A stretch of DNA of 63,063 bases, counting the filler, from Bigelowiella natans CCMP2755 (Eukaryota > Protista > Cercozoa): assembly GCA_000320545.1 (NCBI GenBank). It is 9 parts of 9 records of this genome, joined end to end, with 100 filler letters (N's around TTAATTAATTAA, not from the genome) between each part and the next. Parts side by side here need not be neighbours in the genome. Positions count along the whole stretch, not along the records: positions 21,482 to 29,815 come from ADNK01003562.1; 8 more parts are not named here. The stretch is one strand, 5' to 3'. Below the pieces are notes generated by a model, which searched no databases, was not told the DNA's origin, and worked only from the letters and a program-made list of their open reading frames with translations. A program made the position numbers and the translations under genes. Numbering within the stretch: position 1 is the first letter of the stretch; every line of letters begins with the position of its first letter. This document shows, in pieces, positions 16,231-55,229 of the stretch.

Positions 16231-16330
16231 NNNNNNNNNNNNNNNNNNNNNNNNNNNNNNNNNNNNNNNNNNNNTTAATTAATTAANNNNNNNNNNNNNN
16301 NNNNNNNNNNNNNNNNNNNNNNNNNNNNNN
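16231..16330. other. Artificial contig spacer (N44-TTAATTAATTAA-N44); same spacer at 19112-19211, 21382-21481, 29816-29915, 32012-32111, 41953-42052, 55230-55329, 59867-59966
   Basis: Eight 100-nt N blocks with a six-frame-stop core. Adjacency across them is not biological. Confidence 0.98.
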
Positions 16331-18643: not shown

Positions 18644-19311
18644 GTGCGTGTGTGCGTATATATAATATGTATGTGTGTTTGTGTGTTTGTTGTGGTATCA
18701 ACCTCGCAGGCGATACTTCACTCGAAAGCCCAGCTCCTGTATCTCCTATGGCTATTCCAACTGGATCATGGAGGGGGGGGGGGGGGGGGGGGGAGGAGCA
18801 AAACCCCTCCCCACAAAAAAAAAACCCCCAAGGGTCAAATCCAAGGGGAAGGGTTTCGGGGAAGGAAAAAATTACAAAAAAACCCCCCCTAAATATTTAA
18901 ATTTTTTTAAACCCCCCCCCCCCCCCCCCCCCCCCCAACCGAGAAAATAATTTAGAAGACCATTGTGATTTTGAAACGGAGATGCGGAGGGCATAAACCC
19001 GCCCCTTTTTCTTTTGGGTCGGTAACGTAATCTATTTTTTGAAGGGCCTTCTTCTCCCCTTATTAACACCCCACTGCCCGGAAAGGGGGGGGGGGGGGGG
19101 GGATTTGCGTANNNNNNNNNNNNNNNNNNNNNNNNNNNNNNNNNNNNNNNNNNNNTTAATTAATTAANNNNNNNNNNNNNNNNNNNNNNNNNNNNNNNNN
19201 NNNNNNNNNNNAATCGACTTGCGAGAATACATGGTTTATTCAATTGCTCCTTCCCCCGGCCAAGAGATAGGCGGCTGTTTCTCTCTCTTCCCACTCTCTC
19301 GCAATATATAA

Positions 19312-20982: not shown

Positions 20983-21759
20983 GTAGTGCGTACATAACTA
21001 CATTGTAGTAGGTGTAGTAGTAGTAGTAGTAGTAGTAGTAGTAATGGGAGGAGGAGGAGGAGGAGGAGGAGGAGGAGGATGAAGATGATGCTACTTGCCG
21101 TTCTGAAATATTGCAGGCGAGAAGCAGGAAGAATGTTGAGTAAAGACATAATTGTTTCTCTCTATCCCTTACTGTACTAACCAGAGTTCTCTAAAAAACG
21201 GTAGTGACGGGAAATATAACAAACCGCAACAGTTATCATTACTACCGGTGACCTTCCCCTCTGCAAAAATGAAGGGAGGAGGGGCAGCCCCCCCTCCTCT
21301 CCTCCTCCTCTTCCTTCTTTATCTGTCATTCTTTGCTGGATAAAATAGTACAAAACAATGAGAAACCTTGCATTAAAATATNNNNNNNNNNNNNNNNNNN
21401 NNNNNNNNNNNNNNNNNNNNNNNNNTTAATTAATTAANNNNNNNNNNNNNNNNNNNNNNNNNNNNNNNNNNNNNNNNNNNNGACGCTTATACGGATTGGA
21501 AGAACACAGAAAGACATCGTGAAATGTTGAACAGAAATTCATTTTGGCAAGGAAAGCAGGTAGCGAAATGGGCTGGAGCAGCAGCTTTCATGGACAAGAT
21601 ATTGATAATTGAGCATCTTTAGATAATTGTTTTGATGATTCAACTACATGGGGGGGGGGAAGGCGGAGAGAATCGTGTTGACAACTTGCTCCCCTGTACC
21701 TAATATATCGTACTTTCGACCCACTTACGCGACCGCCCCCACCGCCCCTCCTTTCTCAG

Positions 21760-22862
21760 GTTGCGGCATTGGAGCGTATTGCTTCCACTCCAACGCCAGT
21801 CATTCTCGACCCAGTGGGATTTGGTGCGACATCTTATCGCAACGAAGCAATCTCCGACTTTCTTAGCTCCGTGAAAAGGTAGGAGGGGGTTCATATCTCT
21901 TGCAGCGATACAACATAAATGTAAATACTACCGTTTTTGGATGTTAATGCTACACGAAGGAAGGCGGCCATTCTCGAAAATAACAGCGTGGATTTGTTGA
22001 TATCGTGACCATAAACATGTAGGCTTACGGTTATCAAGGGAAATGCCAACGAGATTTGTGGCCTAGGTGTCATTCTTGCATCATTTATCTTCATCGAATT
22101 TATGAGTAAGACCTAAAGGCAATCTTTTAGCTGGATACCAGGGTAAGGGGCAAGGAGTTGACAGTGATGCTTCCACTGCCATAGCCATCGAACCAGCGAA
22201 GACTCTCGCCAATACGCATGAGTACGTTCATCTAGACCACCTTAGCTGCTCAGCACTTCGGATAAAATATTAACCTCAAGCCGTGAAAATATTCTTGAAT
22301 ATATATATTAATATAGTTTATATATACATGTGTATAAACATCCTCTATGTTACAACAACAAAATTCCAAAGTCTTTGCCATGCCTGCACCCTACACTCCA
22401 GGTGTGTAGTCGGGATTAGTGGCGACACGGACATTGTCGTAAGCGCTGATGGAAAGAAGGCGATTAAGGCGAGTTTTAATACCCAGCGTTAGCCCCGAAT
22501 ATATACGCAATGAAAATCCTCTGACACCCAACTCTTCGCGTGGTATTCCAAAGGTTGTAGGCGATGTTCCCATGATGGCTCAGATCACAGGAACAGGGTG
22601 CTCTTTGGGAGCGTTAGTAGCAGCAAGCGTTGGGGCGAATATCGATGAAACACCCGAAGGACAAAATGAAAGCTCCTCCGCATTTTATGGCGCCTTGGCT
22701 GCACATTCGATGTTCACAGCAGCGGCAGTAAGGGCGAGTGCGAGGACTGACGTTCGGGGGCCTGGAGGGCTCAGCATAGCGTTAATGGACGAGCTCGCTC
22801 AACTTGCAGGAGATCCGGTGGCTGTGATGGAAGCTGTAGAATTACACGAATGCGCGGTGTAA
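21760..22862 (+). CDS. thiM: Hydroxyethylthiazole kinase, multi-exon, 5' part missing
   Basis: PVILDPVGFGATSYR, TVIKGNANEI, GQGVDS, VVGISGDTDIV, MMAQITGTGCSLGALVAA and RGPG motifs. Confidence 0.9.
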
Positions 22863-22866
22863 GAGT

Positions 22867-23018
22867 GTGTGATGTGTAAGTAATAATAATAATAATTATT
22901 ATAACTGCCAATGGCAGTGTGTGTGCAAGGCACACCTCGCAAAGCGATGCGACTGTAACTTGTGATGCTATCATTAGCGGTTATAATAATTATTATTATT
23001 ATTACTTACACATCACAC
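22867..23018. repeat. Perfect 39-bp inverted repeat at the putative virophage terminus
   Basis: 22867-22905 (gtgtgatgtgtaagtaataataataataattattataac) is the exact reverse complement of 22980-23018. The spacer holds three small hairpins. Confidence 0.95.
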
Positions 23019-23146
23019 CGCAAAGCGATGCGACTATGTTATGCGACAGCATTATGCGACTGTATCATTATGCTGTATCATATTACATCATTACACTTAT
23101 GTTTCCAAGGGGTGTTTTTCAGGGGAGGGGGTATATATATATGAGT

Positions 23147-23217
<71 letters not shown>

Positions 23218-23500
23218 AAAAAAAAAAGTTAGTTTTTTTAAAGTACCTATAATCTCTCATTATCAATAAAATGAATGAGGTTAAGAAAAAACACTAATTA
23301 AAGTGGGGTCTGAAAAAAAATGAAGAAGCATACGATGTCATTATGTGCTATGTGCCGTGCCGTGCTGTGTGCTGTGCTATGTATGTATGTATGTTGCGAG
23401 GCGATATGTGATGCTATGCGACTGCTATGGGACTGCTATGCATGTTGCGATGATGGCATGTGCATAAAGCGAAGCAAAAGGATTTTAGCAAAGTTTATCA

Positions 23501-23974
23501 TCACATAGTCAACAACTTCTCAACATCAGTGTGTCCCCCTATGTCTGCCAAATCAAGCGGAGTCTCACCATTCTCATCCTTCACATTGAGATCCGCTTTT
23601 GCCTTCATCAATTCCTTAGCAATGTCAATGTATCCATATTGACTTACCAAATGCAGTGGAGTCACACCACAATCGTTCTTCGCATTCACATCCGCTTTTT
23701 TTTCAATCAATTTTTTAGCAATGTCAGTGTGTCCTTCATAACTTGCCCAATGAAGCGGAGTCATATCATTCTCACCCTTCGCATTGACATCCGCTTTTTC
23801 CTCTATCAATTTCTTAGCAATATCTGTGTGTCCATCACTACTTGCGAAATGAAGCGGAGTCCTATTGCAATGATCCTTCGCATTGACATTCGCATTTTTG
23901 TCAATCAGTTGTGTAACGAGTTCCAAATTTCCATCCTCACAAGCAGAGATAAGGTCCTGATTCAAATTTTCCAT
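23501..23974 (-). CDS. Ankyrin-repeat protein (157 aa), intronless, within the virophage
   Basis: Tandem 33-aa repeats TPLHxAxxxGHTDIAKKLIExKADVNAK. Confidence 0.95.
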   Translation of the reverse strand: MENLNQDLISACEDGNLELVTQLIDKNANVNAKDHCNRTPLHFASSDGHTDIAKKLIEEKADVNAKGENDMTPLHWASYEGHTDIAKKLIEKKADVNAKNDCGVTPLHLVSQYGYIDIAKELMKAKADLNVKDENGETPLDLADIGGHTDVEKLLTM

Positions 23975-23988
23975 TTTGAGAGGTGGGG

Positions 23989-25104
23989 TTAGGACAACAG
24001 TTTTGCAAAGAAGATATTTTCGGTCCTAGTAAAAATCAACTTACGAAATTGCTTTCTTTTTCGCTTACTAGTCCGTATTTCAACAGGTTCATCGGTCCAC
24101 TTCTCCCTCGGTTTCGGTGTTTTTTTCTCAATTGCTTTTTTGACTATTTCGTTTTCAGCAGGTTTCAGTTGATTCTTGCTGAAAGTTTTGTCTAAAACAC
24201 CTTCCAAAATACATCTTACTGGTCGGTCAGGTAATAATAATATGTTTTCAATTTTATGCGGTTTCAACGAATATCTTATGTCGCCCTCCCTGAAATTGCC
24301 TATTTGTTTCTCTCCTTTGAAATTCACAGGATAATCCAATTTGTATCTCACCTTCCTGCCGACTTCGTATAAATCACAATCACCTCCCTCCTTACAAGGA
24401 ACTTCTCCTGTCTGCTTCAACTTCTTCACCTTAGCATTCTCGTTCAACTTCTTTAATATGTCAGGTAATAACTTTAACCACTGCTTACTTACTTTATCGT
24501 TCTCTAATTCTTTCACCAACTGAGTTTTAATAATAATACTGCCGATACTCTTATTTCGTGCTTCCACATTTGCCTGTTGACTATGCCTTGCAACACCTGC
24601 TCTTCTTAAATATATACCTTTCTCTCTCAAATAATTATCCAATCCTTCTTTAAACTCACTTCCAGCATCTACCTGAAGGATTTTCGGCGGTTTCAATACC
24701 TTGTTCTCGTAATATATCTTGTCTATCGCTTTTCTTACCGCTTCAGCAGTCCTTTTTCGTAGAGGTATAGCATCAGTTTGTTTAGTATAATTATCTACTG
24801 CTACTAATAAATATCTAAACCCTCTATCATTAGGTAGATAGAGCAAGTCCATCTGTCCTCGCTTACCTGGATACCCATAGGCATCGTTGTGGGTTGCTTT
24901 TACTTCAGGGTCTTGCTTTTTCTCCCTGGTCAGTTCATCTACTAAATCCTTACTCTTCTTGCCGATTAAACTTCCCAGTATGGTTGGTTTCTTCTTTCGT
25001 TTGACTATCTTTTTCACTATTTTCTTTTTAGGCATTTCAGTTTCAGTATCAGTGTCATCATCATCACTACTGCTTTCACTACTATAAGGTTCTTTCTCGT
25101 CCAT
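23989..25104 (-). CDS. Retroviral-type (rve) DDE integrase of the Polinton/mavirus kind
   Basis: GQMDLL...YLLVAVDNYTK...LQVDAGSEF...ANVEARN (DD34E); C-terminal YEVGRKVRY...FREGDIRYS. Likely start is MDEKE at 25104. Confidence 0.92.
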   Translation of the reverse strand: MDEKEPYSSESSSDDDDTDTETEMPKKKIVKKIVKRKKKPTILGSLIGKKSKDLVDELTREKKQDPEVKATHNDAYGYPGKRGQMDLLYLPNDRGFRYLLVAVDNYTKQTDAIPLRKRTAEAVRKAIDKIYYENKVLKPPKILQVDAGSEFKEGLDNYLREKGIYLRRAGVARHSQQANVEARNKSIGSIIIKTQLVKELENDKVSKQWLKLLPDILKKLNENAKVKKLKQTGEVPCKEGGDCDLYEVGRKVRYKLDYPVNFKGEKQIGNFREGDIRYSLKPHKIENILLLPDRPVRCILEGVLDKTFSKNQLKPAENEIVKKAIEKKTPKPREKWTDEPVEIRTSKRKRKQFRKLIFTRTENIFFAKLLS

Positions 25105-25144
25105 ATACATAATGTGAGATATAAAATATATGTAGTTTATTTTA

Positions 25145-25339
25145 ATGGATAAAGAAATAGAACGAATGCTCATACACAAGGGATTAACCAAAGGAATAAT
25201 AAGTATGATAGATGAATACCTACATCAAAGTTATTTAGTGTGTTTAACTCATAATTTCCGCAGACTAAACAATAGTCCTAAACTTAAGTTCATCAACAAA
25301 TTAAATTTTAAAAAAAAAATATGTAAATTAATAATATAG
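25145..25339 (+). CDS. Small hypothetical virophage protein (64 aa)
   Basis: ATG ORF divergent from the integrase, with the shared upstream motif (TATGT, 11 nt before ATG). Confidence 0.55.
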   Translation: MDKEIERMLIHKGLTKGIISMIDEYLHQSYLVCLTHNFRRLNNSPKLKFINKLNFKKKICKLII

Positions 25340-25343
25340 GAAT

Positions 25344-25520
25344 ATGATAAAGTTAATATATGAATTAATCGTAAATTTACTGCCTGACAATTTTACAACA
25401 TACAGGAATGATGATGCTGTTGTGGTTTATGACAGGTCAGTGTGGAAGATGGAAAGCAGGGACGATGCTATATTATTGATTAAGAAGAATATATGTAATA
25501 TGTCAATAATAAATTGTTAA
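25344..25520 (+). CDS. Small hypothetical virophage protein (58 aa; below the ORF-track cutoff)
   Basis: MIKLIYELIVNLLPDNFTTYRNDDAVVVYDRSVWKMESRDDAILLIKKNICNMSIINC* fills the gap between the previous ORF and a hairpin. Confidence 0.5.
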   Translation: MIKLIYELIVNLLPDNFTTYRNDDAVVVYDRSVWKMESRDDAILLIKKNICNMSIINC

Positions 25521-25535
25521 TATATATTTTCCTCC

Positions 25536-25588
25536 AATATTGAAATTCAACACTTTAGACACCCTCCAAGGTGTTGAAACACAATATT
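25536..25588. terminator. Intergenic stem-loop, candidate transcript 3'-end signal
   Basis: aatattg..ttcaacac pairs with gtgttgaa..caatatt, immediately after the ORF ending at 25520. Confidence 0.5.
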
Positions 25589-25621
25589 AAATTAAATATA
25601 AAAATATATAGTATAATATAT

Positions 25622-26581
25622 ATGAATAGTATACTCAAAGATGTTGATAGAACTTCTCTCTTTCCAATTAGGCACAAAGACATATGGAATGCCTACAAGA
25701 TACAACAAGCAGGATACTGGACCGCCGAAGAAATAGATTTCAGTAATGATGCCGATGACTTCTCCAAATTAAGTCAGGACGAACAAAAGTACTTAAAATA
25801 TACACTCATCTTCTTTGCGAATAGTGATATTGAAGTGAATGAAATGATAAATAGGAATCTATACGAGGAGTTTAAGGCATTAGAAATTCGTATGTGCTAC
25901 GACTTTCAAAGGCAAATGGAAAATGTACACACAGAAACATACAATCTACAGATAGATACTTTGATAAAAGATAAAAAAGAAAAAGAGGATTTAATAAATG
26001 CTGTAAAGAATAATCCTATCATAGAACAAAAGATTAACTTCTGTAGGAAACAGGTCTTGTTATACAACTCCATACAGCATAAATTGATATGTCAGGTCAT
26101 CTTTGAAGGCATATTCTTCGCTTCCTCGTTTGCCTGTATTTACTACTTCAAGCAGAAAGGTATATTAAAAGGTCTAACTTTATCTAATGAGTTCATCAGC
26201 AGAGATGAGAACCTACATTATAGTTTCAGTATTATGCTGTACAATAAGTTAGAGAAGAGACTATCACAAGCAGAAGTAGCGGTATTGTTTGATAAGGCAC
26301 TATGTATTGAGCGAGACTTCATCACACAAGCATTGCCTGTTAGATTTTTAGGAATGAATGCGGATATGATGTTAGACTACATCAAATTCACAATAGACAA
26401 CATATTACTCAAATTAGGTTATGATACAATCCACAATGTGAGTAATCCTTTGACCTGGATGGAAAGACTGGATTTACAAGGCAAGACCAATTTCTTTGAT
26501 AGTAGAGAAAGCAACTACCAATCTGCTAATGTATTAAACGAGAACAAAGAAGACATCTTCCAAGTAGACCTCAATTTTTAA
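25622..26581 (+). CDS. nrdB: Ribonucleotide reductase small (beta/R2) subunit, class Ia, intronless, virophage-encoded
   Basis: WTAEEIDFSND, FFANSD, MENVHTETY (ExxH plus radical Tyr), EGIFF, SNEFISRDENLH, GKTNFF..R...YQ and C-terminal FQVDLNF. Likely start is MNSILK at 25622. Confidence 0.96.
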   Translation: MNSILKDVDRTSLFPIRHKDIWNAYKIQQAGYWTAEEIDFSNDADDFSKLSQDEQKYLKYTLIFFANSDIEVNEMINRNLYEEFKALEIRMCYDFQRQMENVHTETYNLQIDTLIKDKKEKEDLINAVKNNPIIEQKINFCRKQVLLYNSIQHKLICQVIFEGIFFASSFACIYYFKQKGILKGLTLSNEFISRDENLHYSFSIMLYNKLEKRLSQAEVAVLFDKALCIERDFITQALPVRFLGMNADMMLDYIKFTIDNILLKLGYDTIHNVSNPLTWMERLDLQGKTNFFDSRESNYQSANVLNENKEDIFQVDLNF

Positions 26582-26598
26582 TATCTAAATTATTATAG

Positions 26599-26814
26599 AT
26601 GCTACTGGAAATAGTTAGACTATTACAATTACAACTACGATTAACAAGATTAAGAAAAGAGATAAACAAATTGATAAAGCAAAACAAGAAACTGATAAAA
26701 GAAAACAGCAAATTGTTGATACAATTAAATATTATGAAACAACCCTTTGATGACACTGGTGATTTAAGTGATAGTGCTTTTAGGATGTTGATGAACGAAG
26801 TAAATGAAAAATAA
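26599..26814 (+). CDS. Small coiled-coil hypothetical virophage protein (71 aa)
   Basis: Heptad-like LxKENxKL repeats; preceded by TATCT 12 nt before ATG. Confidence 0.6.
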   Translation: MLLEIVRLLQLQLRLTRLRKEINKLIKQNKKLIKENSKLLIQLNIMKQPFDDTGDLSDSAFRMLMNEVNEK

Positions 26815-26829
26815 TCTAATCTTTATTAA

Positions 26830-26940
26830 ACGATCGTAGTGTTATTAATATTAGGACTTATCTTTTCCATAGGTTATACGATAGGAAAGATAGTAGCAAG
26901 GAACACGGATTTAGACCCCACCAACGATATTAGAGTATGA
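26830..26940 (+). CDS. Possible 36-aa single-TM micro-protein starting at ACG (non-AUG start or mutated ATG)
   Basis: Frame (T/M)IVVLLILGLIFSIGYTIGKIVARNTDLDPTNDIRV*; ATCT lies exactly 12 nt before the ACG. Confidence 0.4.
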   Translation, partial: TIVVLLILGLIFSIGYTIGKIVARNTDLDPTNDIRV

Positions 26941-27241
26941 TAAGATTAAATCTGTCAGCATAGTCCTCTAAACTATCCTTCAAATCAGGTTTATTCCACA
27001 AGACCCAACGAGATAATGAACCAGCAGTCAGGAATTTGCTCCAATCTTCATTCTTCATATGCCTTGTCAGGTATCTATCTTTTCTGTTTTCATCTTTATG
27101 TATCGTAAAGTCGCTATACCGACTATCTCCAAAGTCTGTGTGTTTTACTTTTATTATCCTTCCACCCTTATCAACATAAAAGAGCATCCTATGCTTCTTA
27201 TTTTTAAGAGGTGATTTCATTAGTTTAATATATATTTTCAT
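26930..27241 (-). CDS. Conserved small viral protein (DUF5754-like)
   Basis: KKH...FGDSRYSDFTIHKDENRKDRYLTRH...W...AGSLSRWVLW resembles a family I recall from large DNA viruses; the Pfam name is from memory. Confidence 0.7.
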   Translation of the reverse strand: MKIYIKLMKSPLKNKKHRMLFYVDKGGRIIKVKHTDFGDSRYSDFTIHKDENRKDRYLTRHMKNEDWSKFLTAGSLSRWVLWNKPDLKDSLEDYADRFNLIIL

Positions 27242-27256
27242 ATTATAATAGTTAAC

Positions 27257-27342
27257 ATAAAATAAATTGTTAAAAAAACAATTTATTTTATATTAAGAGG
27301 AAAAATAAATTTCTATTTATTTTTTCTTGTTCTTAACAAGAA
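27257..27342. terminator. Cluster of three AT-rich hairpins downstream of the major capsid gene
   Basis: Perfect 15-bp stem 27257-27271/27277-27291; 10-bp stem 27301-27310/27315-27324; 8-bp stem 27324-27331/27335-27342. Confidence 0.6.
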
Positions 27343-27358
27343 TATTATAATATAAAAT

Positions 27359-29182
27359 TCATAATAAAGAAGAGAGTTTCTTTTTCATCCCGCCACCACT
27401 TACGGATGCTTTACCTCCCATCTTTTTCTTAAGCACATTTGCTCCCATTTTAAGAACGGCATCTTGAACTTTAGGATTAGAGGCAATATTTTTCACAGTT
27501 TTTCCAACTTTAGATGCTAAACTGCTGAAGAACCCTGAACCGACTAATTTGTTTTCAACATCACTTCCTCCAAATTGTGCTGATAATACATCTTGTTCTG
27601 TAATAAGGTTCTTAACAATCATAGAAGAACCTGCTACAGTCTTGAAAAATCCTGATTGAGGGGTCATAACTACAAGTTGAAGGTTTGGAATAGCAACATC
27701 ACCCATTGCTGTAGGTTTCATACAGGTTGCTTGGAGTTGTAATGTGTAGTTTCCAATCACACCTGGTGCTTGAGAAGGGTTTAATTCAATATCTTTACCC
27801 ATTTTAGCAATGACGAACCCACCACTGGTGTGGATTTTTCTGCCTTTACTTCTACTGCTTCCAATATAGGTGTGGAAATCAATTTCTAATCCATTATCAT
27901 AACTCATCTTGTATAATTTATCCACAGGCATTGTGTTTAAAAGACCGCTTCTGTTATCAAAGGTAATGTTTAAATTTGTGATGGGAAAATAGAATTCATT
28001 TTCAGTCGCATCATATGTTGTTTTCTTAACAGCAATAATTAAACTATCAGGGATACTTGGTAATGTTATAGTAGATGATAATATGGTTTTACTATTGTTT
28101 ATCCCTTGAGGAAAACCATTACTATCAATAGTTCTATATGTAGGGAACTCCACATATGGGACAATATTTTCAGGACTGACTTTGAGGTCTAAAGCAGGAG
28201 TTAAACACACAACATCTACATAACTTTGTAAAAATGGTCCTGGTTTATTCGCTAATGTAACGAATTCTGCTCTACAGGTTATAGGATTATTTTCAGTGCC
28301 GATTCTGTTTCCATCGTAACAGACTGCTCTGCTTGGGTCTTTGAAATTGATTTGTAAGGTAGCATTGTTAACACCATATAAACCTACACTATGATAATTC
28401 TCTGGAACATAGCATAACGGACTAATCATAAGTTTCTCTTTGGATGTAAATTTTAGGAAAAATTTATATTCTGCTTGGACAGCATTTCCAACTGCTCTTA
28501 CGACTGGTTCGCCATCCGCATATGGATAAGCAACACCACCTATGGTCACATTTCCATTAAAGTTGTCCGGTAAAACATCGCCATTAGCATCTACAAAGTT
28601 AACATCAAAATGTGCTCCATTCTTGTGGTAGAATTTATCGCCGTCAAAGAACCCAGTAATACTATTATTGAATGCTCCTTTACCTTCGCTATATTTTCCA
28701 TAAGGTGACAAATAGGAAGGGCAAATCGCACTGCTACTGTCATATTTTGGGTCAGTAGTCATTAGAAGCAACTGCTCGTTTATGGATTGGTCTAAATTAG
28801 TTGTGGATACTGTATCGTTGATTTGTAAACTCATTGTGGAAACCATTCTGTGTAAAGGGAAGTTGTTTAATGATAAGATTTCACTTAAGGTTGCGATTTT
28901 AGCACCTTGAGCAGGGTTTCCACCAGCACCAAAATCAGCATTAGTATTAAAATCACCTCTGTTTACAGTACATAAAAGGGTGACCTCGCTGGTCCAGTTT
29001 ATCTTTCGGTCAACGAAGACATTTAAAGAAGGTATGGTAATGTTATAGTTTTGATTACTCGCACTTGCGGATAAGGATTTAATCTGTTTGTTATTCACTG
29101 ACATAGAACTCTTAGAGATTTTGTATTCAGGTGGTAACTGAACTGTTCTTGCATCATAAACTGCTTTCTTACTTAAATTCAT
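27359..29182 (-). CDS. Virophage major capsid protein (double jelly-roll, 607 aa)
   Basis: Sputnik-V20-like motifs: IPSLNVFVDRKI, FPLHRM...QINDT, EKLMISP, GLYGVN, SSTITLPSIPDSLIIAV, ITFDNRSGLL, LYKMSYDNG, APGVIGNYTLQ, plus a G/K-rich C-terminal tail. Confidence 0.92.
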   Translation of the reverse strand: MNLSKKAVYDARTVQLPPEYKISKSSMSVNNKQIKSLSASASNQNYNITIPSLNVFVDRKINWTSEVTLLCTVNRGDFNTNADFGAGGNPAQGAKIATLSEILSLNNFPLHRMVSTMSLQINDTVSTTNLDQSINEQLLLMTTDPKYDSSSAICPSYLSPYGKYSEGKGAFNNSITGFFDGDKFYHKNGAHFDVNFVDANGDVLPDNFNGNVTIGGVAYPYADGEPVVRAVGNAVQAEYKFFLKFTSKEKLMISPLCYVPENYHSVGLYGVNNATLQINFKDPSRAVCYDGNRIGTENNPITCRAEFVTLANKPGPFLQSYVDVVCLTPALDLKVSPENIVPYVEFPTYRTIDSNGFPQGINNSKTILSSTITLPSIPDSLIIAVKKTTYDATENEFYFPITNLNITFDNRSGLLNTMPVDKLYKMSYDNGLEIDFHTYIGSSRSKGRKIHTSGGFVIAKMGKDIELNPSQAPGVIGNYTLQLQATCMKPTAMGDVAIPNLQLVVMTPQSGFFKTVAGSSMIVKNLITEQDVLSAQFGGSDVENKLVGSGFFSSLASKVGKTVKNIASNPKVQDAVLKMGANVLKKKMGGKASVSGGGMKKKLSSLL

Positions 29183-29212
29183 ATATAATTACACCGAGAA
29201 AAAAAATTTAAA

Positions 29213-29815
29213 CTATTTTTGCTTTCGTTGAAACATTAGTTTTAGATGGATGCTACTTTTGTTAGGCATTCGTATAGGGACTAAATCACCTGTCAACCGA
29301 TGCTTCCAAAATGCTGAAATCTGTATACTTTTCAAGGGAATGTTAGCAGAGGTAAAGTTAATATATCTGTATTCACCGCTTGGAACATAGGTAATCGTTC
29401 CGCTATAATCATCGGCACTACTAATACCTACTGTCATATCACTAATAACCTTTTGGGAGGTATCTTGCCTACTATCGCTTACTTGCTGTCGGTCCACAAA
29501 TTCTAAAGGTGTTCCCGTGATTTCACTCTCAATGGGAATGATATTGGTAGTAAATACAATCGCACTGACAGGACACCATAAACTGCTTACACTCTCATAG
29601 TCTTGAGATAAAATACTATATGTTTTATTTCCTTTGGTGAGTGAATGAATGTCTAAATCATCCTCAATCGGTAGAATATCGTAGGCACATCCCGGTATAG
29701 ACATATTTTCAACTATATCAGTAATCGTGCCTCTGTTATATTCTATAGTGTTTTTAAGGTCGCCTCCTATATAGTTGTGATGAAAATTGCTAAAGAGTAA
29801 GAAGAGGTTGCTGTT
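29213..29815 (-). CDS. Virophage minor capsid (penton) protein, 5'-truncated
   Basis: QDYES...WCPVSAIVFT...PI, YVPSGEYRY, PLKSIQISAFWK...G.L.P, KLMFQRK. The frame stays open to the contig end (NSNLFLLFSNF...) and sits directly upstream of the MCP gene. Confidence 0.88.
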   Translation of the reverse strand, partial: NSNLFLLFSNFHHNYIGGDLKNTIEYNRGTITDIVENMSIPGCAYDILPIEDDLDIHSLTKGNKTYSILSQDYESVSSLWCPVSAIVFTTNIIPIESEITGTPLEFVDRQQVSDSRQDTSQKVISDMTVGISSADDYSGTITYVPSGEYRYINFTSANIPLKSIQISAFWKHRLTGDLVPIRMPNKSSIHLKLMFQRKQK

Positions 29816-31354
29816 NNNNNNNNNNNNNNNNNNNNNNNNNNNNNNNNNNNNNNNNNNNNTTAATTAATTAANNNNNNNNNNNNNNNNNNNNNNNNNNNNN
29901 NNNNNNNNNNNNNNNGTTCATTTGACGTGGCTTGGAATATAGTGTTTTAATGCAAAACATTTTGACATGAGGATCATCTATCTCTCTCTATCTCTCTCTC
30001 TTTCTCTCTCTCCCTCCCCCCTTCCTCTTCCCCCCCCCCTTCGCCCTCCCCCCCCCCCCACCCCCCCACGCTTAACCATATGATTACAGCGTTGCAAAGA
30101 CAGAAGAGATAAAGTTGTTTGCAAGATTACCTTCATGCGGTTCGAAGAATACATATTTGTTCCCGAACTTATCGCTCCCAACCTGTTCATCGTGGCATTT
30201 TCCAGGCAGATTATACTAGAGAATGAATATTCTGGGCAACATTTCGCATTGACTGACCAATGTTTTCCCCGTGAAGTGTTTTTGAATGGGTCTCAGCAAC
30301 CCTGTGATTCGCTTGAACATCGCACCCTCTCCCCACTATAACTGGAAAATGAATGGACGAAGAAGGTGGGCAGGACAAGGTAATTCTTCCAGGAAGTTTC
30401 TAAGATTCCATGAAACTTCAGCAAAAGCTACTGCACCTTGTACGTCCTGTTTGCAAAGTATTTCCTTTTCGAACAATTTTTATCGGCAAACTTTCCCTAG
30501 CCAGGAAGGACTGGAAGGACGATGCTAACTATTACAAGCGGCAAAGAATTCATAATGTCGCTACTACATATACGAGGAGGATGATAATACGATTTTGTTC
30601 TTTAAAAAAATTAATCGGTACGGCGATTGGCTAGTCGCGGAGCACGGAACGTTCGATGATTTCGGTCCTTGGCGCATCTCGGGAGGATATTCGGAGCATA
30701 ATCGGGGTTTGGGATGCCGTACTGAAACCCTGGTTTTGCAAGAACTGCTATACGAAATAAACAGCGAATATATTTTCACTTTACTTGGAACGACATGATA
30801 TATACCTCTATTTTATCTCAAAATACATAGCATTATTGCGAAAGTAGATTTATGAAAGAAATTGTCAAAATCTGAAATTGCTGGTTAGACCCTTGCGCGC
30901 GCTCTCATGCCCCCCTCCCGTCTATTCTCTGGCTGGGAAGGAGGATTGTGAGGGAGGGGGATATTTTTCCACACGACATATATGTGTGTTAATGGCGTGT
31001 GCAAAAATCTTCGTTGTGAGTTCTGCTTCGAGCAAAACTTCCAGAGCTAGGTCACTTGGAGCACCGGGCCGAATTCATTTTTATTCGCCGAACAGCGAAA
31101 GGGTGGCAGGGATTAAAAACTTCACACTGTGTTGTCTTCGATGTAGATCGTGATGGAAGATTTTTACTTCTGTGACCTATTGAAGATTTTTGTTTCATCA
31201 CCTTCGTTCTGACCGAATTTGTTTACATCCGAATCGAATGTCCAGGCGACAGCGAAGAGGACGAGGTACGCGATTGATATCTTCCCGCTGCCGCTCCATA
31301 GTATCCAACGCCCTACGATAGGATAACTTCAAGCAGATAAAATCAAAAAGAATA

Positions 31355-32011: not shown

Positions 32012-32182
32012 NNNNNNNNNNNNNNNNNNNNNNNNNNNNNNNNNNNNNNNNNNNNTTAATTAATTAANNNNNNNNNNNNNNNNNNNNNNNNNNNNNNNNN
32101 NNNNNNNNNNNGCTCTGGTGAGCCTACCTGCCTCTATCCTTCCAACAACTAGCCGCATCCAACCATCAATAACTTACAACTT

Positions 32183-41929: not shown

Positions 41930-42241
41930 CCATATATATTTATATGAGAGGGNNNNNNNNNNNNNNNNNNNNNNNNNNNNNNNNNNNNNNNNNNNNTTAA
42001 TTAATTAANNNNNNNNNNNNNNNNNNNNNNNNNNNNNNNNNNNNNNNNNNNNCAACTACCCCATGAAGTGACACACGCACACATTGCATCCTACAGATGA
42101 ATCATCAACACGTAAAGCCCTAAGAACACCTCGCCGCTGGCTTGCGCCGAAGCATGACCGAAATAAAAGAGCTGTAGATGATACGAATTACGATATTGAA
42201 TATAATGAAACTACACACCACACACACACACACACACACAC

Positions 42242-42285
<44 letters not shown>

Positions 42286-42371
42286 GTATATACTAAATGT
42301 GTGTGTATTTATTTATTTTTATTTGTACACTTATACATTTTAATCTATATCGTTATTCGTATCATCTACAG

Positions 42372-42745
42372 CTCTTTTATTTCGGTCATGCTTCGGCGCA
42401 ATCCAGCGGCGAGGCTGTTCTTTGGGCTTTACGTGTTGATGATTCATCTGTGGGTGCTATTTGTCCTGCTCCACTTCATGGGTAGTTGCAAGCAGCACAA
42501 GCACATGTTTTCACTGCATATCATTCTCGTACGCTATATAGCCCTGATAGCAGTCACACCGATCCATAACGCACGCTGCTGAATGATTGTTTCTTGATGC
42601 TGTGCATGTCATATTAGCCCACAGATTCTTATCAAAATAATTATCGATCGCAGGTCATGAAAATGCGGACCACGTTGAGGTCGGCCACAGCGTTTTGATG
42701 CCTCCGGGCGGCCCATCTGGAATAGTAACACCGCCAGGAGTCTAG
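42372..42745 (+). CDS. Golgin-84 (GOLGA5)-like C-terminal TM anchor, last two exons
   Basis: LRRNPAARLFFGLYVLMIHLWVLFVL matches the golgin-84 tail anchor pattern. Confidence 0.7.
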
Positions 42746-50525: not shown

Positions 50526-53500
50526 TCATCGCTTTCGGAACTTCACCAACCACCAGGTAATAGATTCCTCTCTAACCTTATCTCCTTTGTCGCTTACCCA
50601 GAACTCACCTTCGTCCTTAGGTTCGTGTCCATACCAGCCCTCTGCATCAAGGTCCCCCAGGACCTTATACCAGTGCTCAAAGGGTAAGTCGGGAACAGCT
50701 AGGTAGAGTAGCTGATATTTTCCGTCCTTTATTTTCATAGCTACCCTCTCCATATTTCGTAATCCAGGGTAGCCTAGATAGACAATCTTCATGCGCCAAT
50801 CGTCGTTCACCCTGACCTTATTGTTTCCATATTCCACATCGAACTTAGGTCGGGGTCCTAAACAAGGCATTGCTCGCTCCCACACAGTAGGGTTTACTTT
50901 AACATCCTCTAGGAGCTTCTCACCGATATCATAATTCTTTAGGTGACTGATGTGGCGCAAGGTGACCCTGTTCCCATCATAGATGTAGTACTGCTTCCTC
51001 CCCTTCCTCTCGGTAACCTTTGCAACGCCACCCCAGAAGGGGTCTTGTTTATTTCTCGATCTCAGATTTACCTTGGCCCTAACATACTGTCCTTCCTTTA
51101 GAACTCGGCCATCGTACGGGACCTTCTCGTCTTCGCTCTCGGTATCGTCGTCGTTGTCGTCGCCTTCTTCCCTCTCCTTATCCTTGATACCTCCCCCAGA
51201 CGTGAAGGTGTCGTTTACTAACCCTTGTATCTTGTCTGGTGTGGTGCTATTTATCCTGCTTAGGTTGGCCAAGGTGCGGTGGAGTCGCTCTACCTTGGAG
51301 TTGGACTGGGCATAGTATACAGGTGAGGCATCAATATTAGGGTGTGGTAGCTGTAGAAGAGAGGTCTCATTATCCACATGTAACTTCTTTGGTATCTTGT
51401 TTATGCTAACTTCATCAGGGATAGCCTGGAGCTCAGACTCCCAGGTACGGTAGCAGTTAGTAAGCCTCTGCTTATATAAGCCTTTGTTCTTCTTAGCAAC
51501 GTTGACCTTGATAATCTTTTTAACCCAGCACTTTCCAGTGGCCACATCAACGAAGGTAAGGTAGTGATAGCCATCGTACTTATAAACATCAATTTGCACG
51601 ATATCTAAGAAGTTCCTTGCTTTGATTTTCTTAGATGCACGGCTCTTGCTGGACTCCTTGGTGGCGACGCCTGCCGCCTTCAAGCTGGAGCACCTGCAGC
51701 CACGCAGGTATGTCCTTATCTCTTTTAGCTTGTAGGGCCAGTAGTAATGGTAGAGTAGAGCAGTGATATGGTTTTCTCCTACGTGTGCAGGTCCATGGGC
51801 GGTAAAGAGAAGGGCTCCCCTGGTCCGCCGTGGCACGTAGGTACGCCTAACATTATTAGTGTATACATATATCCTATCACTAAGTACCTCATGCTTGTGT
51901 TTGTATTTATCCAGGTGTTCTTGAAGGTGCTGGAGCTCCTCTGGCTCAGGCAGGAAGTCGCCGTCCTCGAAGGTAATCGCGTTAACCATAGGGGTGACCT
52001 GGGTAGGGACTTTCTTTTGGAACAGCCTGCTGAAATAGTCAGCAAGCTGCTTGTCTCCTGGTGCGTAGACCACTGTCCTCTTGTCCCTAAACTCTTCCGT
52101 GTCCGCCCTCATAGCTGCATACTCATCGTTAGGCGCTTCGAGCTTGCGGTCGATGCCTAGGAGGGGCTTGTGGTCAGTCATTAAGGTGAAGCTGGGCACC
52201 GACAGCAGGTAGTATCTTAGTTTCCTCTGCGCCTCAGTCATGGCTTTATACTCTCCTTTTGTAGGGCTGTACTTGGCCTCAGCTGCTGTGCAGGCCCTGC
52301 CCCACACCCGTATGATCTGCTGGTCTTGGGTAAGTACAGCAGCCATACCTAGCTTAGACCAGTCTGTCCATAGGGTAGCTGGTCTAGTAGTGTCTAGCTT
52401 AGCATTCAATAGGGTGTTGCTGCATAACTTTATTAGGTTATCGAAGTGGGCATCAAGGCCAGCCTTGGCCCACACCTTAGCGAAGCTGAGGCCTACAGAG
52501 TTCTCCTTCCGGTAAGCAGTAGTAAAAGCAGCTGCAGTCCTAGCGTAGGTAGGGGAGAACCTACGTAGTATCCAAGCTGCAGTCTGCAAGAATGACTTTA
52601 ACTCCTTTGCATTCTTAGGTTTAGGGGCTTGCTGTAGTGCTGCTACTTTCTCGGGGTTTGGGGTGATGCGGCCTTGCTCCAGGTAATATCCACACCACTT
52701 GATTCTTGTAGCTAGGAATGTACACTTCTGCAGTCTAATAGTAAAACCGAAGTGTGCAAACCTAATAAATATATTTTCCAGGAGGAAGATCTGAGCGACG
52801 ACTGTGTTGGTACATATTATGTCATCATCCACATACACAAACACAAACACCCACAACACAGACGCCATCCCATCATGTGTGTATGCCCTGTAGTTCTGAC
52901 TACTGAACGCATCCCCTGATATGCTTAGGCCGTAAGGGAATACGACGAAGTGCCACTTCCTGTGCCTGCTGGAGAACGCGGTAATGGGGCGGGAGGTTTT
53001 GTGGATGGGTGTCTGCATGTATGATTCATTTTTATCTAGGGAAGAGTAGTATTTGTATCCTATGACGTGTTCAATAACGTCATCTATCCTTGGTGTAGGT
53101 GTCTGGATCCTCTTTATTACTCGGTTGTGGCGGATGAAGTTGTGCGCCAGGCGGAAGAAAGGGTAAGTAGGTTTCTTAGCTAGCACATGTCTCACGTTCC
53201 ATGGTGAGTTGCTTGGCTCTATCTTCCCTTCCTTTGCCCATTCATTGATCTGCCACTCTATCTTTTCCCAGTCCGCTTCCGGTCGCCTATGTTCTGGGTC
53301 ATTGATGATGCACTCTTCGTATCCCTTCTTTAGCTCGATCTTTACTGGGGTAAGCTTGCTGGAGGGCTTCGTCGTCGGCTTGGTGATGTCAGAGTACTTC
53401 TCGTTTAATATTTTATTAATGTACTTTTTGCCTTTGTCGATATCCCAATCATCAGCTGGGGGGGTCTTGTCCAGTAGCTCCGTTATCTGTCGGATGGTCT

Positions 53501-55229
53501 TGCCGGGGTTCTTCTTCCGTAGCTCGGTAGGTGTAGGTAGCTTGTTGTCCGCTAGGTCCATAAACTCTAACGCATTAACGCTTGACTCAGAGGTCCACTC
53601 GTCAAGCCGTATCATGTTCTGGCTGATGGTCCTGCCTGACTTCTTTGGCAACTTAGCAAAGTATATCTTGTGATTGTAGAATGATATGATCCCCCCTAAT
53701 TTTTCTAGGGCATCCTGTCCGAGGAGTAGTTCCATGGATAAAGTCATGGCTACTCGGGTCTTGATTTGGGTCTCCGCGTCGCTGCCAGGTATCTGTAGCT
53801 TTAGCATTAGCTCACCGACGGTCTTCATGGAAGAGCTTCCGTCTGCTTGAGCATATTTACGTTCTTTCTTAGTCACTTGATCCAATAGTCCTAACCTTCT
53901 TACTGTGCTTAGGCTTATGAAGGACTTCGGCATGCTGCCACTATCCCAAAGGGCAGGTAGTTTCTTGTAGTCTCCGTAGCTGTCTTTAACTTTAACCTTG
54001 GTCATAGCAACTTTGATAGTCCTGTTAGCGTCTTCGTCATTAATGTTGCATACTCCTAAGTTCTTTATGTCGTCTAGGGTCATGGGCTTGTCTTGGTCCT
54101 GCGTTGCTGGTACTGCTGTCTTCGTCGGCGCCTGCTTAAGGTGATCTAATATTCCGTTTATCTGCTGCTGTATAGCATTGATACTGTTCTGCTTTTTGTT
54201 CTTATATTTATTGTTCTTCCCGTTGTTGCTGCCTTGCCATTTGCTGTTGTTATATCCTTGTCCTCTGCCTTTCTTTCTCTTTAACTTCTCGTAGTGTTCG
54301 TTGAGCTGCCTGATCGTCATCCTGGGTCGTCCTTCTTTCCTGTCTCTGCAGTCTTTAGCGGTGTGTTTCCCTTTACGTGAGCAGTATCCGCAACGTCGGT
54401 TACCTTCCCTGTCCTTGTACCAGTCTCGCTGCGGCTTAATAGCGTTAATGTTTCCTATGCCAGGTACCTTAGGGCTGGTAAACTTGCGGTCCTGCTCCTG
54501 CTCGCGTAGGGATATAGCCTGCACTGCTGCCTCCATCGTGGTGTAGCCTTTCTCCGTAACGTAAGTGGATTCCTTTATCTTTAACTTGAACTCTTCAAAC
54601 CTTGCCTGATCATCACCTGTGTTGTAATTAAAATCATGTAGTTCGTCGATCATATCCTGGAAGCGCGTGGCAAAGTCTCTAACAGGTTCTCTCTCATGCT
54701 GCATCATTGCTCTGTATTTTCTAATAGCCTGGGGTAGGGAGTTAGCATCCTGTTCATTTACAAAAGCCTTCATTATCGCCTCAACGTCTCGTAGCCCACT
54801 AACTGTAGTGTGTATTTTCTCTAGCTGCCTGATCCGGGTCCTGCCTGTCTCGTAAAGGTCCATGGCTTGCTTTATTATAGCTAGCCATTTGAGCTTGTCG
54901 TTTTCGGTGGGGTTAGGGGTAAAGTCGCAGAGTATACTCCTAGCGTTCTTCCACCACCTCCTTGCCTCACCTCTTTTCCCGTTGTATTTCGTTATCATAA
55001 CCGGTGCTGTTTTAACAGACATGAACTGGGTGTTCCGCTGTACCGGCTGCTGCTGCTTGACGGTGCTCTGGGTCGTCCCCCGCGAGGCGCCCAGACCCCC
55101 GTCGTTCCTAAACAAAGCTGCCCACTCTGGAGGTAAGTCTGCTTCGTAATCCATGATGTCCTGCATGATAGCTGCCCAAACATCATGTGTCTGATACTTG
55201 TATTCTATCGATACTTTCAGTTTGGCGTA
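50526..55229 (-). CDS. Gag-Pol polyprotein (more than 1546 aa; frame open to contig end)
   Basis: Zn knuckle CGYCSRKGKHTAKDC; protease LWDSGS; RT FPYGL and YVDD; RNase H TDWS/TDHKPL/ADYFSR; integrase HxxxH-CxC, QID/HVD/KVE; SH3-like module; extra C-terminal domain. Confidence 0.96.
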   Translation of the reverse strand, partial: YAKLKVSIEYKYQTHDVWAAIMQDIMDYEADLPPEWAALFRNDGGLGASRGTTQSTVKQQQPVQRNTQFMSVKTAPVMITKYNGKRGEARRWWKNARSILCDFTPNPTENDKLKWLAIIKQAMDLYETGRTRIRQLEKIHTTVSGLRDVEAIMKAFVNEQDANSLPQAIRKYRAMMQHEREPVRDFATRFQDMIDELHDFNYNTGDDQARFEEFKLKIKESTYVTEKGYTTMEAAVQAISLREQEQDRKFTSPKVPGIGNINAIKPQRDWYKDREGNRRCGYCSRKGKHTAKDCRDRKEGRPRMTIRQLNEHYEKLKRKKGRGQGYNNSKWQGSNNGKNNKYKNKKQNSINAIQQQINGILDHLKQAPTKTAVPATQDQDKPMTLDDIKNLGVCNINDEDANRTIKVAMTKVKVKDSYGDYKKLPALWDSGSMPKSFISLSTVRRLGLLDQVTKKERKYAQADGSSSMKTVGELMLKLQIPGSDAETQIKTRVAMTLSMELLLGQDALEKLGGIISFYNHKIYFAKLPKKSGRTISQNMIRLDEWTSESSVNALEFMDLADNKLPTPTELRKKNPGKTIRQITELLDKTPPADDWDIDKGKKYINKILNEKYSDITKPTTKPSSKLTPVKIELKKGYEECIINDPEHRRPEADWEKIEWQINEWAKEGKIEPSNSPWNVRHVLAKKPTYPFFRLAHNFIRHNRVIKRIQTPTPRIDDVIEHVIGYKYYSSLDKNESYMQTPIHKTSRPITAFSSRHRKWHFVVFPYGLSISGDAFSSQNYRAYTHDGMASVLWVFVFVYVDDDIICTNTVVAQIFLLENIFIRFAHFGFTIRLQKCTFLATRIKWCGYYLEQGRITPNPEKVAALQQAPKPKNAKELKSFLQTAAWILRRFSPTYARTAAAFTTAYRKENSVGLSFAKVWAKAGLDAHFDNLIKLCSNTLLNAKLDTTRPATLWTDWSKLGMAAVLTQDQQIIRVWGRACTAAEAKYSPTKGEYKAMTEAQRKLRYYLLSVPSFTLMTDHKPLLGIDRKLEAPNDEYAAMRADTEEFRDKRTVVYAPGDKQLADYFSRLFQKKVPTQVTPMVNAITFEDGDFLPEPEELQHLQEHLDKYKHKHEVLSDRIYVYTNNVRRTYVPRRTRGALLFTAHGPAHVGENHITALLYHYYWPYKLKEIRTYLRGCRCSSLKAAGVATKESSKSRASKKIKARNFLDIVQIDVYKYDGYHYLTFVDVATGKCWVKKIIKVNVAKKNKGLYKQRLTNCYRTWESELQAIPDEVSINKIPKKLHVDNETSLLQLPHPNIDASPVYYAQSNSKVERLHRTLANLSRINSTTPDKIQGLVNDTFTSGGGIKDKEREEGDDNDDDTESEDEKVPYDGRVLKEGQYVRAKVNLRSRNKQDPFWGGVAKVTERKGRKQYYIYDGNRVTLRHISHLKNYDIGEKLLEDVKVNPTVWERAMPCLGPRPKFDVEYGNNKVRVNDDWRMKIVYLGYPGLRNMERVAMKIKDGKYQLLYLAVPDLPFEHWYKVLGDLDAEGWYGHEPKDEGEFWVSDKGDKVREESITWWLVKFRKR

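What the first reader, a model, noticed from the sequence alone, without database searches (positions are those of the whole stretch)
25622..26581. Virophage carries a catalytically complete ribonucleotide reductase small subunit
Seen: di-iron ligands (FFANSD, ENVH, EGIFF, DENLH), the radical Tyr and a eukaryote-style R1-binding tail (FQVDLNF, compare FTLDADF) are all intact, between the integrase and capsid genes; no large subunit is visible. Established: R2 needs R1, and nucleotide-metabolism genes are not virophage core genes. Inference: the satellite pairs its own R2 with host or giant-virus R1, either boosting dNTP supply in the factory or competing with the giant virus's R2 as an interference mechanism.
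Basis: partly seen in the sequence, partly recalled or inferred. Interest (0 to 1): 0.8.

Follow-up and report, generated by a model that had tools for sequence, protein, structure and literature searches.

The report
Virophage reductase gene, spliced apart
A small virus built into a marine alga's chromosomes carries half of the enzyme that makes DNA building blocks, as some related viruses are already known to do, and likely borrows the other half during giant-virus infection; in environmental RNA this gene shows up only as fragments of a long, heavily spliced transcript, which would keep it inactive while the virus lies dormant.

Summary
The gene is real: an intact 319-aa class Ia ribonucleotide reductase R2 inside an AT-rich, integrase-bearing virophage inserted just behind a spliced host gene. 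It is 99% identical to multi-copy Bigelowiella natans gene models. R2 in virophages is already in print (YSLV4 ORF04, EMALE07); 6 of 80 related virophage loci carry R2 and none R1. Lone R2 borrowing a cellular R1 is shown for poxviruses.

Two corrections. The tail does not tell host from giant-virus R1. This copy has Asp293 where 203 of 204 other R2s and its sister copies have the radical-gating Glu, so 'catalytically complete' is unproven here.

Not found in my searches: four marine RNA runs and two further records hold a + strand RNA with over 20 short exons and GT/GC-AG joints. It crosses integrase, capsid and penton antisense and R2 sense, keeps 301 of 960 R2 bases and drops the start codon. 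The joints are absent from three DNA runs. Dormant transcription therefore seems to yield spliced non-coding RNA, not R2 mRNA. The scan's earlier notes hold neither observation.

The parts
21755..22862 (+). Host hydroxyethylthiazole kinase (ThiM-like) gene, 3' part, intron-containing; its stop codon (22860-22862) lies 4 bp before the element's terminal hairpin
   Evidence: PF02110 on the last exon, E=2e-7; upstream exons with AG/GT borders read by eye; GC 46.7%
22867..23500 (.). Inferred left end of the provirophage: 47-bp-arm hairpin (22867-23018), (TA)n run, repeated ATGCGACTG motif
   Evidence: 96% complementary arms, DNA fold -50 kcal/mol and motif at 22947, 23054, 23416; DNA contigs cover 23300 onward in 3 of 3 DNA runs. 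The exact junction, second TIR and target-site duplication are not visible.
23501..23974 (-). Ankyrin-repeat gene, 157 aa; the only element gene seen as an unspliced, polyadenylated RNA
   Evidence: Pfam Ank families; X21 depth up to 18 on the - strand with poly(T) loose ends at 23480/23483; TpA O/E 0.40
23989..25173 (-). rve-type (retroviral-like) integrase, 394 aa
   Evidence: PF00665 E=4e-11
25145..25520 (+). Two small ORFs (64 aa, 58 aa) of no known family
25622..26581 (+). Ribonucleotide reductase small subunit (class Ia R2), 319 aa; iron ligands, radical Tyr107, Trp33 and tail Tyr299 intact; Asp293 in place of the conserved Glu in this copy
26599..26814 (+). 71-aa coiled-coil-like ORF
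   Evidence: sub-threshold Pfam hits only
26930..27241 (-). DUF5754 protein, 103 aa
   Evidence: PF19058 E=3e-14; homologues in 14 of 80 related virophage loci
27359..29182 (-). Virophage major capsid protein, 607 aa
   Evidence: PF21915 and PF22031, E~1e-35 each; 96% to a B. natans gene model
29213..29815 (-). Penton (minor capsid) gene, 3' part; cut by the contig end
   Evidence: PF21507 E=3e-10; N-linker at 29816
24347..29815 (+). Span of a long spliced RNA made from sister copies of the element (23 exons mapped for L004, median 62 nt); antisense to integrase, DUF5754, MCP and penton, sense to R2; continues beyond the contig end
   Evidence: RNA runs X15, X16, X17 and X20; records L003, L004; joints absent from DNA runs X1, X6, X3

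Best explanation
This is an R2-only auxiliary gene of an integrated Bigelowiella natans-type virophage: the protein is predicted to carry a di-iron/tyrosyl-radical cofactor and would pair with a borrowed R1 (host or giant virus) to raise DNA-precursor supply when a giant virus wakes the virophage, while in RNA from the sea the gene appears only as pieces of a spliced transcript that likely cannot make R2. Shown: intact ORF and motifs, location inside the element, many copies, purifying selection between copies, no R1 nearby or in related virophages, and the spliced RNA with its joints absent from DNA runs. Inferred: cofactor formation, R1 binding, the choice of partner (not resolved), expression during co-infection, and that the host spliceosome makes the joints because it reads AT-rich viral sequence as intron. 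An intact R2 mRNA would then need a transcription route that escapes splicing, most simply the giant virus's cytoplasmic machinery. This particular copy may be weakened by Asp293.
For: Family and residues. Multi-copy: 9 named B. natans gene-model entries plus the window's own sequence in one 90% cluster; the spliced L004 joins integrase, R2, MCP and penton pieces in the same order from sister copies; DNA contig X6-26 spans 25568-27249. Selection: 14 synonymous and 5 non-synonymous among the 19 variants listed inside R2, pN/pS 0.08, p=2e-7 (one search showed only its best-supported rows); two other virophage R2 pairs have pN 0.06/0.09 against pS 0.70/0.89. R2 without R1: 6 of 80 virophage loci with R2, 0 with R1, among them G022, a 25,386-bp record with direct terminal repeats. 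Short N-terminus: the protein starts about 70 residues into mouse R2, as described for poxvirus R2, which lacks the regulatory N-terminus and binds host R1 (PMC2900304). Both candidate partners exist: ChlorV, which infects chlorarachniophytes, encodes both subunits (PMC13196603). Splicing: 13 of 17 joints read directly as GT..AG or GC..AG on the + strand against 0.7% for random joints; exon GC 41% against 34% for the region, 0 of 20,000 random placements as high; alternative exons differ between L003 and L004; R2-region depth in X15 and X16 matches an exon-only expectation; 0 of the 10 X20 joints listed appear in three DNA runs. Mavirus provirophage genes are silent until giant-virus infection (bioRxiv 068312).
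Against: No activity or binding was measured, and neither host nor ChlorV R1 was available. The lineage is long-branched and differs at 18 further positions where at least 95% of other R2s agree (e.g. N75M, R154K, F158Q, S167A), so its function could have drifted. Asp293 in this copy. The right part of the element is unseen, so an R1 there is not excluded. No TCTA late motif lies within 60 nt upstream of R2, so the link to ChlorV transcription is unsupported by sequence. X21 has a few + strand reads in bins that are mostly or wholly intronic, so some unspliced RNA exists. The RNA evidence is mostly assembled contigs, which drop rare forms; the RNA variants match sister copies, not this copy; the 2017 marine runs may be one campaign; the record type of L003/L004 is not given. 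Only 6 of 80 relatives carry R2, so it is dispensable for virophages in general.
Confidence: 0.6

Rival explanations
1. Interference: the R2 binds giant-virus R1 without supporting turnover and so starves the giant virus of dNTPs.
For: A radical-transfer-dead poxvirus R2 (Y300F) is dominant negative (PMC2900304). This copy changes the E350-equivalent residue, whose substitution disrupts radical transfer in E. coli (PMC11482829; that Asp specifically is inactive is recalled, not read). Lineage-specific changes at otherwise invariant sites.
Against: Tail, ligands, Y107, W33 and Y299 are kept in all relatives that cover them, down to 76-78% identity, and Glu293 in all sister copies; one other natural R2 (P0066) has Asp there, so Asp may be tolerated; the virophage needs dNTPs itself; in dormant cells the RNA is spliced apart.
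Confidence: 0.1
2. This copy is a decaying insertion: the lineage's R2 works, but this gene has picked up disabling changes and is no longer used.
For: Three private amino-acid changes against all 7 sister sequences (V102, F242, D293), two at near-invariant sites; none of the three DNA runs shows the window's base at 26347 or 26500; B. natans is reported to mutate integrated viral DNA (bioRxiv 2026.01.13.699255).
Against: Reading frame intact; most differences are synonymous; no TpA depletion in R2 (O/E 0.89); an assembly error cannot be excluded, since the identical database entry P0121 may come from the same assembly.
Confidence: 0.15
3. The spliced RNA is the selected product: a long antisense RNA that holds integrase and capsid genes silent during dormancy, with R2 destroyed as a side effect or as a lock.
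For: The same core joints recur in six data sets and in sequence-distinct copies; 5' ends cluster at 24347-24431, diverging from the ankyrin RNA that begins at 23982-24017 (weak hint, contigs); the few X21 reads on MCP and penton lie on the + strand, antisense to those genes.
Against: Exon choice follows GC content and several joints vary, as expected of incidental splicing; no knock-down, small-RNA or chromatin data.
Confidence: 0.12
4. Host domestication: the alga uses the viral R2 as an extra, cell-cycle-independent small subunit in uninfected cells.
For: Many intact copies, short N-terminus, a few sense reads in X21.
Against: No RNA contig covers the R2 introns in X15 or X16; X21 depth is at most 0.83 on R2 against 18 on ankyrin; the gene sits with intact capsid and integrase genes, as in a recent insertion.
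Confidence: 0.03

Closest known systems
Bigelowiella natans provirophages (Blanc et al. 2015; not held; known here through PMC6723459 section 6.2 and passages of PMC5127031, PMC6905037)
   Same: R2 99% and MCP 96% identical to B. natans gene models; lower GC than flanks; integrase; many copies. This element is very probably one of that set.
   Different: Reviews report these elements as highly transcribed, including morphogenesis genes and an integrase; the RNA seen here over those genes is antisense and spliced. Whether the original paper lists the R2 or mentions splicing I could not check.
Virophage RNR2 genes: YSLV4 ORF04 (PMC4602308, passages) and EMALE07 of Cafeteria burkhardae (PMC8547959, passages); RNR in 51 PLV/virophage genomes (bioRxiv 10.64898/2026.05.28.728513, passages)
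   Same: A small-subunit gene as an accessory gene of a virophage, in EMALE07 also host-integrated.
   Different: Their sequences were not compared here. The B. natans R2 forms its own long-branched clade of four; two other virophage R2 groups fall elsewhere in the trees, but one origin was not rejected (AU p=0.086).
Chordopoxvirus R2-only strategy, vaccinia F4 (PMC2900304, abstract and passages)
   Same: R2 kept without R1; regulatory N-terminus missing; C-terminal R1-binding heptapeptide with Phe at both ends; radical-transfer Tyr near the tail.
   Different: Hybrid complexes are shown for poxviruses and only inferred here; here two R1 proteins (host, giant virus) are on offer and the gene spends its dormancy in a nucleus that splices.
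Mavirus provirophage latency (bioRxiv 10.1101/068312, passages)
   Same: rve-integrase virophage in the nuclear genome, expected to wake on giant-virus infection.
   Different: Mavirus genes are reported silent; here the element is transcribed, but into a spliced RNA and one ankyrin mRNA.
Cryptic splicing of AU-rich foreign genes in plant nuclei (recalled, no call)
   Same: AT-rich stretches removed as introns, GC-richer islands kept as short exons.
   Different: Here a natural endogenous virus, with over 20 introns along one transcript.

Membership tests
Class Ia RNR small subunit (eukaryote/NCLDV-type R2) | Ferritin-like R2 fold and PF00268 over the full length | tested here: met
Class Ia RNR small subunit (eukaryote/NCLDV-type R2) | Six iron ligands with Asp as first ligand | tested here: met
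   D69, E100, H103, E162, E196, H199, each 205 of 205 in other R2s; mouse/E. coli numbering labels are recalled, mapping from the 1h0n alignment
Class Ia RNR small subunit (eukaryote/NCLDV-type R2) | Radical Tyr, Trp/Asp/Arg pathway and tail Tyr | tested here: met
   Y107, W33, R194, D195, Y299
Class Ia RNR small subunit (eukaryote/NCLDV-type R2) | C-terminal R1-binding heptapeptide | tested here: met
   Phe313 and Phe319 as in 186 and 203 of 205 others; positions named critical in PMC2900304
Class Ia RNR small subunit (eukaryote/NCLDV-type R2) | Forms a tyrosyl radical and supports reduction with an R1 | not testable with these tools
   needs EPR and an assay
Catalytically competent R2 (this copy) | Glu six residues before the tail Tyr (E. 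coli E350 site) | tested here: not met
   Asp293; Glu in 203 of 204 others and in all sister copies; role of E350 from PMC11482829 and PMC8463856 passages. Lowers 'catalytically complete', not family membership.
Virophage (Lavidaviridae sensu lato) | Virophage-type major capsid protein | tested here: met
   PF21915, PF22031
Virophage (Lavidaviridae sensu lato) | Penton / minor capsid protein | tested here: met
   PF21507, partial gene
Virophage (Lavidaviridae sensu lato) | Packaging ATPase and cysteine protease | tested here: inconclusive
   Not in the window; the distal part of L004 has a Walker-A-like piece (E=6e-8) and a weak piece like the ORF upstream of the penton (E=5e-4) of related virophages; those ORFs had no Pfam hit, so the names are my reading of motifs
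Virophage (Lavidaviridae sensu lato) | Replication depends on a giant virus | not testable with these tools
   no infection data
Host-integrated provirophage | Integrase, host nuclear flank, GC contrast | tested here: met
   PF00665; spliced host gene ends 4 bp before the hairpin; GC 34.8% against 46.7%
Host-integrated provirophage | Terminal inverted repeats and target-site duplication | tested here: inconclusive
   only the left end is on the contig
R2-only viruses (poxvirus-type strategy) | No R1 in the genome | tested here: inconclusive
   None in the window, L003 or L004; 0 of 80 related loci, 76 of them searched as whole records, many fragmentary; the complete element was not available
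R2-only viruses (poxvirus-type strategy) | Binds a foreign R1 | not tested
   no host or ChlorV R1 sequence on hand; no complex prediction was run
Spliceosomal introns (the RNA) | GT/GC-AG ends on one strand, present in RNA and absent from DNA | tested here: met
   13 of 17 joints directly canonical, the other 4 with extra letters between the sides; 15 of 22 and 14 of 21 auto-called in L004 and L003 (one spurious last row dropped for L004); absent from 3 of 3 DNA runs

The most novel reading that the evidence does not exclude
The alga's spliceosome acts as a lock on its provirophages: a promoter inside the integrase gene drives one long RNA across most of the element, antisense to integrase and capsid genes and spliced so that no sense-strand gene (R2, protease, ATPase) survives. 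The much-cited 'high transcription' of B. natans provirophages would then be largely non-coding, and R2 and the other genes could be made only once a giant virus supplies unspliced, cytoplasmic transcription.
Probability: 0.3. Interest if true: 0.75.

Novelty: new variant of a known kind. Interest (0 to 1): 0.45.

Why it matters
The R2 itself is a known kind of virophage cargo with a poxvirus precedent, and alone would merit about 0.25. What raises interest is the RNA. B. natans is the standard example of a 'transcriptionally active' provirophage and that activity is cited in support of a defence role. If much of the signal over capsid and integrase genes is spliced antisense RNA, that argument needs re-examination. 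With ChlorV now in culture, strand-specific long-read RNA sequencing before and after infection can test both whether these elements are live and when R2 is really made. The Glu/Asp293 pair of natural alleles also gives a direct test of the supply and interference models.

Tried and rejected
No whole genome is held, so complete copies could not be read. Close relatives in IMG/VR: none with the single R2 or MCP query or with the four-sequence clade alignment (best 43%). Donor of the gene: unresolved. The clade's neighbours changed between trees; it fell in a 48-row group holding 12 of 14 giant-virus MAG rows (SH-aLRT 95, quick tree; the careful search did not finish) and away from the named vertebrate R2s, but the host R2 was not in the set and the nearest rows are unnamed; searches for their context found only distant relatives. 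Independent acquisition by three virophage groups: suggested by the trees, not shown (AU p=0.086). Tail as a partner signal: rejected. TCTA late promoter upstream of R2: absent within 60 nt; present upstream of 3 of 9 starts examined, not tested against chance. TpA hypermutation of R2: not seen. DNA deletion or retrocopy as source of the joints: not supported, though contigs drop rare forms. Contig depth as copy number: not used as a count. No complex prediction was run: no relevant R1 was available. Literature: 10 searches; aimed at splicing of provirophage RNA and listed 4 and 11 papers; I searched the text of three of the latter and found no such report; the rest were seen as listings only. 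PMC4981718 and PMC5635652 passages gave nothing relevant. The ChlorV supplement could not be read; it may bear on R1/R2 relationships, and the supplement of Blanc et al. 2015 may already list this R2.

Full report
Setting. The window is nine contigs joined by 100-base N-linkers. The finding lies on the contig 21482-29815. Its left 1.4 kb is the 3' part of an intron-containing host hydroxyethylthiazole kinase gene (PF02110; exons read by eye). Four bases after that gene's stop codon a long hairpin begins (22867-23018) and GC falls from 46.7% to 34.8%. The AT-rich part holds an ankyrin gene, an rve integrase, two small ORFs, the R2, a coiled-coil ORF, DUF5754, a virophage major capsid gene and a penton gene cut by the contig end. 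The R2 is 99% and the capsid 96% identical to Bigelowiella natans gene models. This is a host-integrated virophage of the set described for that alga in 2015; I could not obtain that paper and know it through reviews (PMC6723459 section 6.2; PMC5127031 passages).

The protein. It is a class Ia R2 by profile (E=9e-78), by sequence to mouse R2 and by predicted fold (rmsd 1.6 A to human p53R2). The six iron ligands, radical Tyr107, Trp33 and Asp195 match 205 of 205 other R2s, and Arg194 and tail Tyr299 match 204 of 205. Like poxvirus R2 it lacks the long N-terminus of cellular R2 (PMC2900304 passages). Two caveats. The tail pattern is shared by giant-virus, other viral and Bacteroidota-labelled R2s and names no partner. 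And residue 293, six before the tail Tyr (spacing fixed in 330 of 330 rows) and so by inference the E. coli E350 site needed for radical transfer (PMC11482829, PMC8463856 passages), is Asp here. It is Glu in 203 of 204 other R2s, in the three 76-78% relatives and in all seven other near-full-length cluster members; one unrelated natural R2 has Asp. The lineage looks functional; this copy may be impaired, tolerant of the change, or misassembled.

Part of the element, and under selection. The 90% cluster holds nine named B. natans gene-model entries besides the window's own sequence. Three DNA runs cover the whole 23300-29815 stretch, and one contig spans R2 to DUF5754. Of the 19 variants listed within R2, 14 are synonymous (pN/pS 0.08, p=2e-7; the variant table was cut to its best-supported rows).

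R1. None was found in the window. Among the best 80 of 502 IMG/VR loci with a related capsid, five held R2 and none R1 in the fetched DNA (the R1 profile found R1 in 41 of the 85 R2-seeded control loci). Of 29 records longer than their locus, 25 were searched whole: one more R2 (G022, 25,386 bp, direct terminal repeats), no R1; four were not held. So 6 of 80 carry R2 and 0 carry R1; many records are fragments and some are near-duplicates. The unseen right part of this element remains an open gap. Trees put the B. natans R2 clade on a long branch among mostly viral R2s, apart from two other virophage R2 groups; a single origin was not rejected (AU p=0.086) and the donor is unresolved.

What is already known. 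RNR2 is reported in YSLV4 (ORF04, grouping with giant-virus R2s; PMC4602308 passages), in EMALE07 (PMC8547959 passages), and RNR in 51 PLV/virophage genomes (bioRxiv 2026.05.28.728513 passages). Most chordopoxviruses encode only R2, which binds host R1 through its last seven residues and is needed for replication; a radical-transfer mutant is dominant negative (PMC2900304 abstract and passages). ChlorV, a giant virus of chlorarachniophytes, encodes both subunits (PMC13196603 passages).

The RNA. Three marine RNA runs each hold a contig that lies on the element in many short pieces; a fourth shows the same joints, and two JGI records, L003 and L004, have the same form. Of 17 joints examined, 13 read directly as GT..AG or GC..AG on the + strand against 0.7% for random joints; the other four have extra letters between the sides, probably copy differences. 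L004 maps as 23 exons, median 62 nt, keeping 1497 of 5200 bases; exons are 41% GC against 34% for the region. L003 and L004 differ by alternative exons and splice sites. None of the 10 X20 joints listed appears in three DNA runs. The RNA is antisense to integrase, DUF5754, capsid and penton, and sense to R2, of which it keeps 301 of 960 bases in four exons, without the start codon or the first iron ligand. In X15 and X16 the depth over R2 equals the exon-only expectation. L004 runs on for 2.1 kb through lipase-like, protease-like and ATPase-like pieces (names from motifs). In the one raw-read run (about 6% read) the ankyrin gene has depth up to 18 with poly(A), R2 at most 0.83, and the few capsid/penton reads are antisense; a few reads fall in R2 introns or just downstream. 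Limits: contigs drop rare forms and show no strand by themselves (strand is read from the splice signals); the RNA variants match sister copies; the runs may come from one campaign; L003/L004 are of unstated type. I found no report of this, but the 2015 paper was not read.

Mechanism. Most likely (0.6) the R2 is a working accessory subunit that borrows an R1 during giant-virus co-infection to raise dNTP supply; in dormancy the host spliceosome treats AT-rich viral sequence as intron, so transcription across R2 gives no R2 mRNA. The first half is inferred from conservation and the poxvirus precedent; the splicing is shown; the switch to unspliced mRNA on infection is untested, and no TCTA late motif precedes R2. 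Rivals: a decayed copy (0.15), a selected silencing RNA (0.12), interference with giant-virus R1 (0.10), host use (0.03).

Verdict. Observation partly confirmed; interpretation partly supported; virophage R2 is a known kind. The spliced, largely antisense transcript of the provirophage is the part worth following. Interest 0.45.

Noticed in passing
window 16231-16330, 19112-19211, 21382-21481, 29816-29915, 32012-32111, 41953-42052, 55230-55329, 59867-59966: Eight 100-base N-linkers with a stop-codon core join nine separate contigs; neighbours across them are not genomic neighbours.
   Followed up: yes
window 22860-22867: The element's hairpin starts 4 bp after the stop codon of a host ThiM-like gene, so this insertion probably displaces the gene's 3' UTR and could allow + strand read-through.
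   Followed up: partly
window 23501-23974: The ankyrin gene is the only element gene seen as unspliced poly(A) RNA, is TpA-depleted (O/E 0.40 against 0.84-0.90 for the other genes) and has lower DNA contig depth than the rest in three runs; it may be a host-expressed, copy-specific passenger.
   Followed up: partly
window 24020-24345: RNA contigs for ankyrin (leftward) and the spliced RNA (rightward) begin on either side of this 330-bp stretch inside the integrase ORF, a weak hint of a divergent promoter.
   Followed up: partly
L004 1476-3569: Continues beyond the window's contig through penton, lipase-like, protease-like and ATPase-like pieces that also look interrupted; gives a glimpse of the missing right part, with no R1 piece.
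   Followed up: partly
window 25973; P0128, P0129: A one-base loss in an A-rich run in DNA run X6, and two truncated cluster members, may be broken R2 copies or sequencing errors.
   Followed up: no
G022:C1:24090-24860 (L170); L112, L131, L145, L147, L162: Two further virophage groups with R2 and no R1 seen, both under purifying selection.
   Followed up: yes
window 50526-55166 (-): 1546-aa retrotransposon polyprotein with protease, reverse transcriptase, RNase H and integrase zinc-finger domains.
   Followed up: no
window 42053-42488: A 436-base imperfect palindrome (83% self-complementary) at the start of a contig.
   Followed up: no
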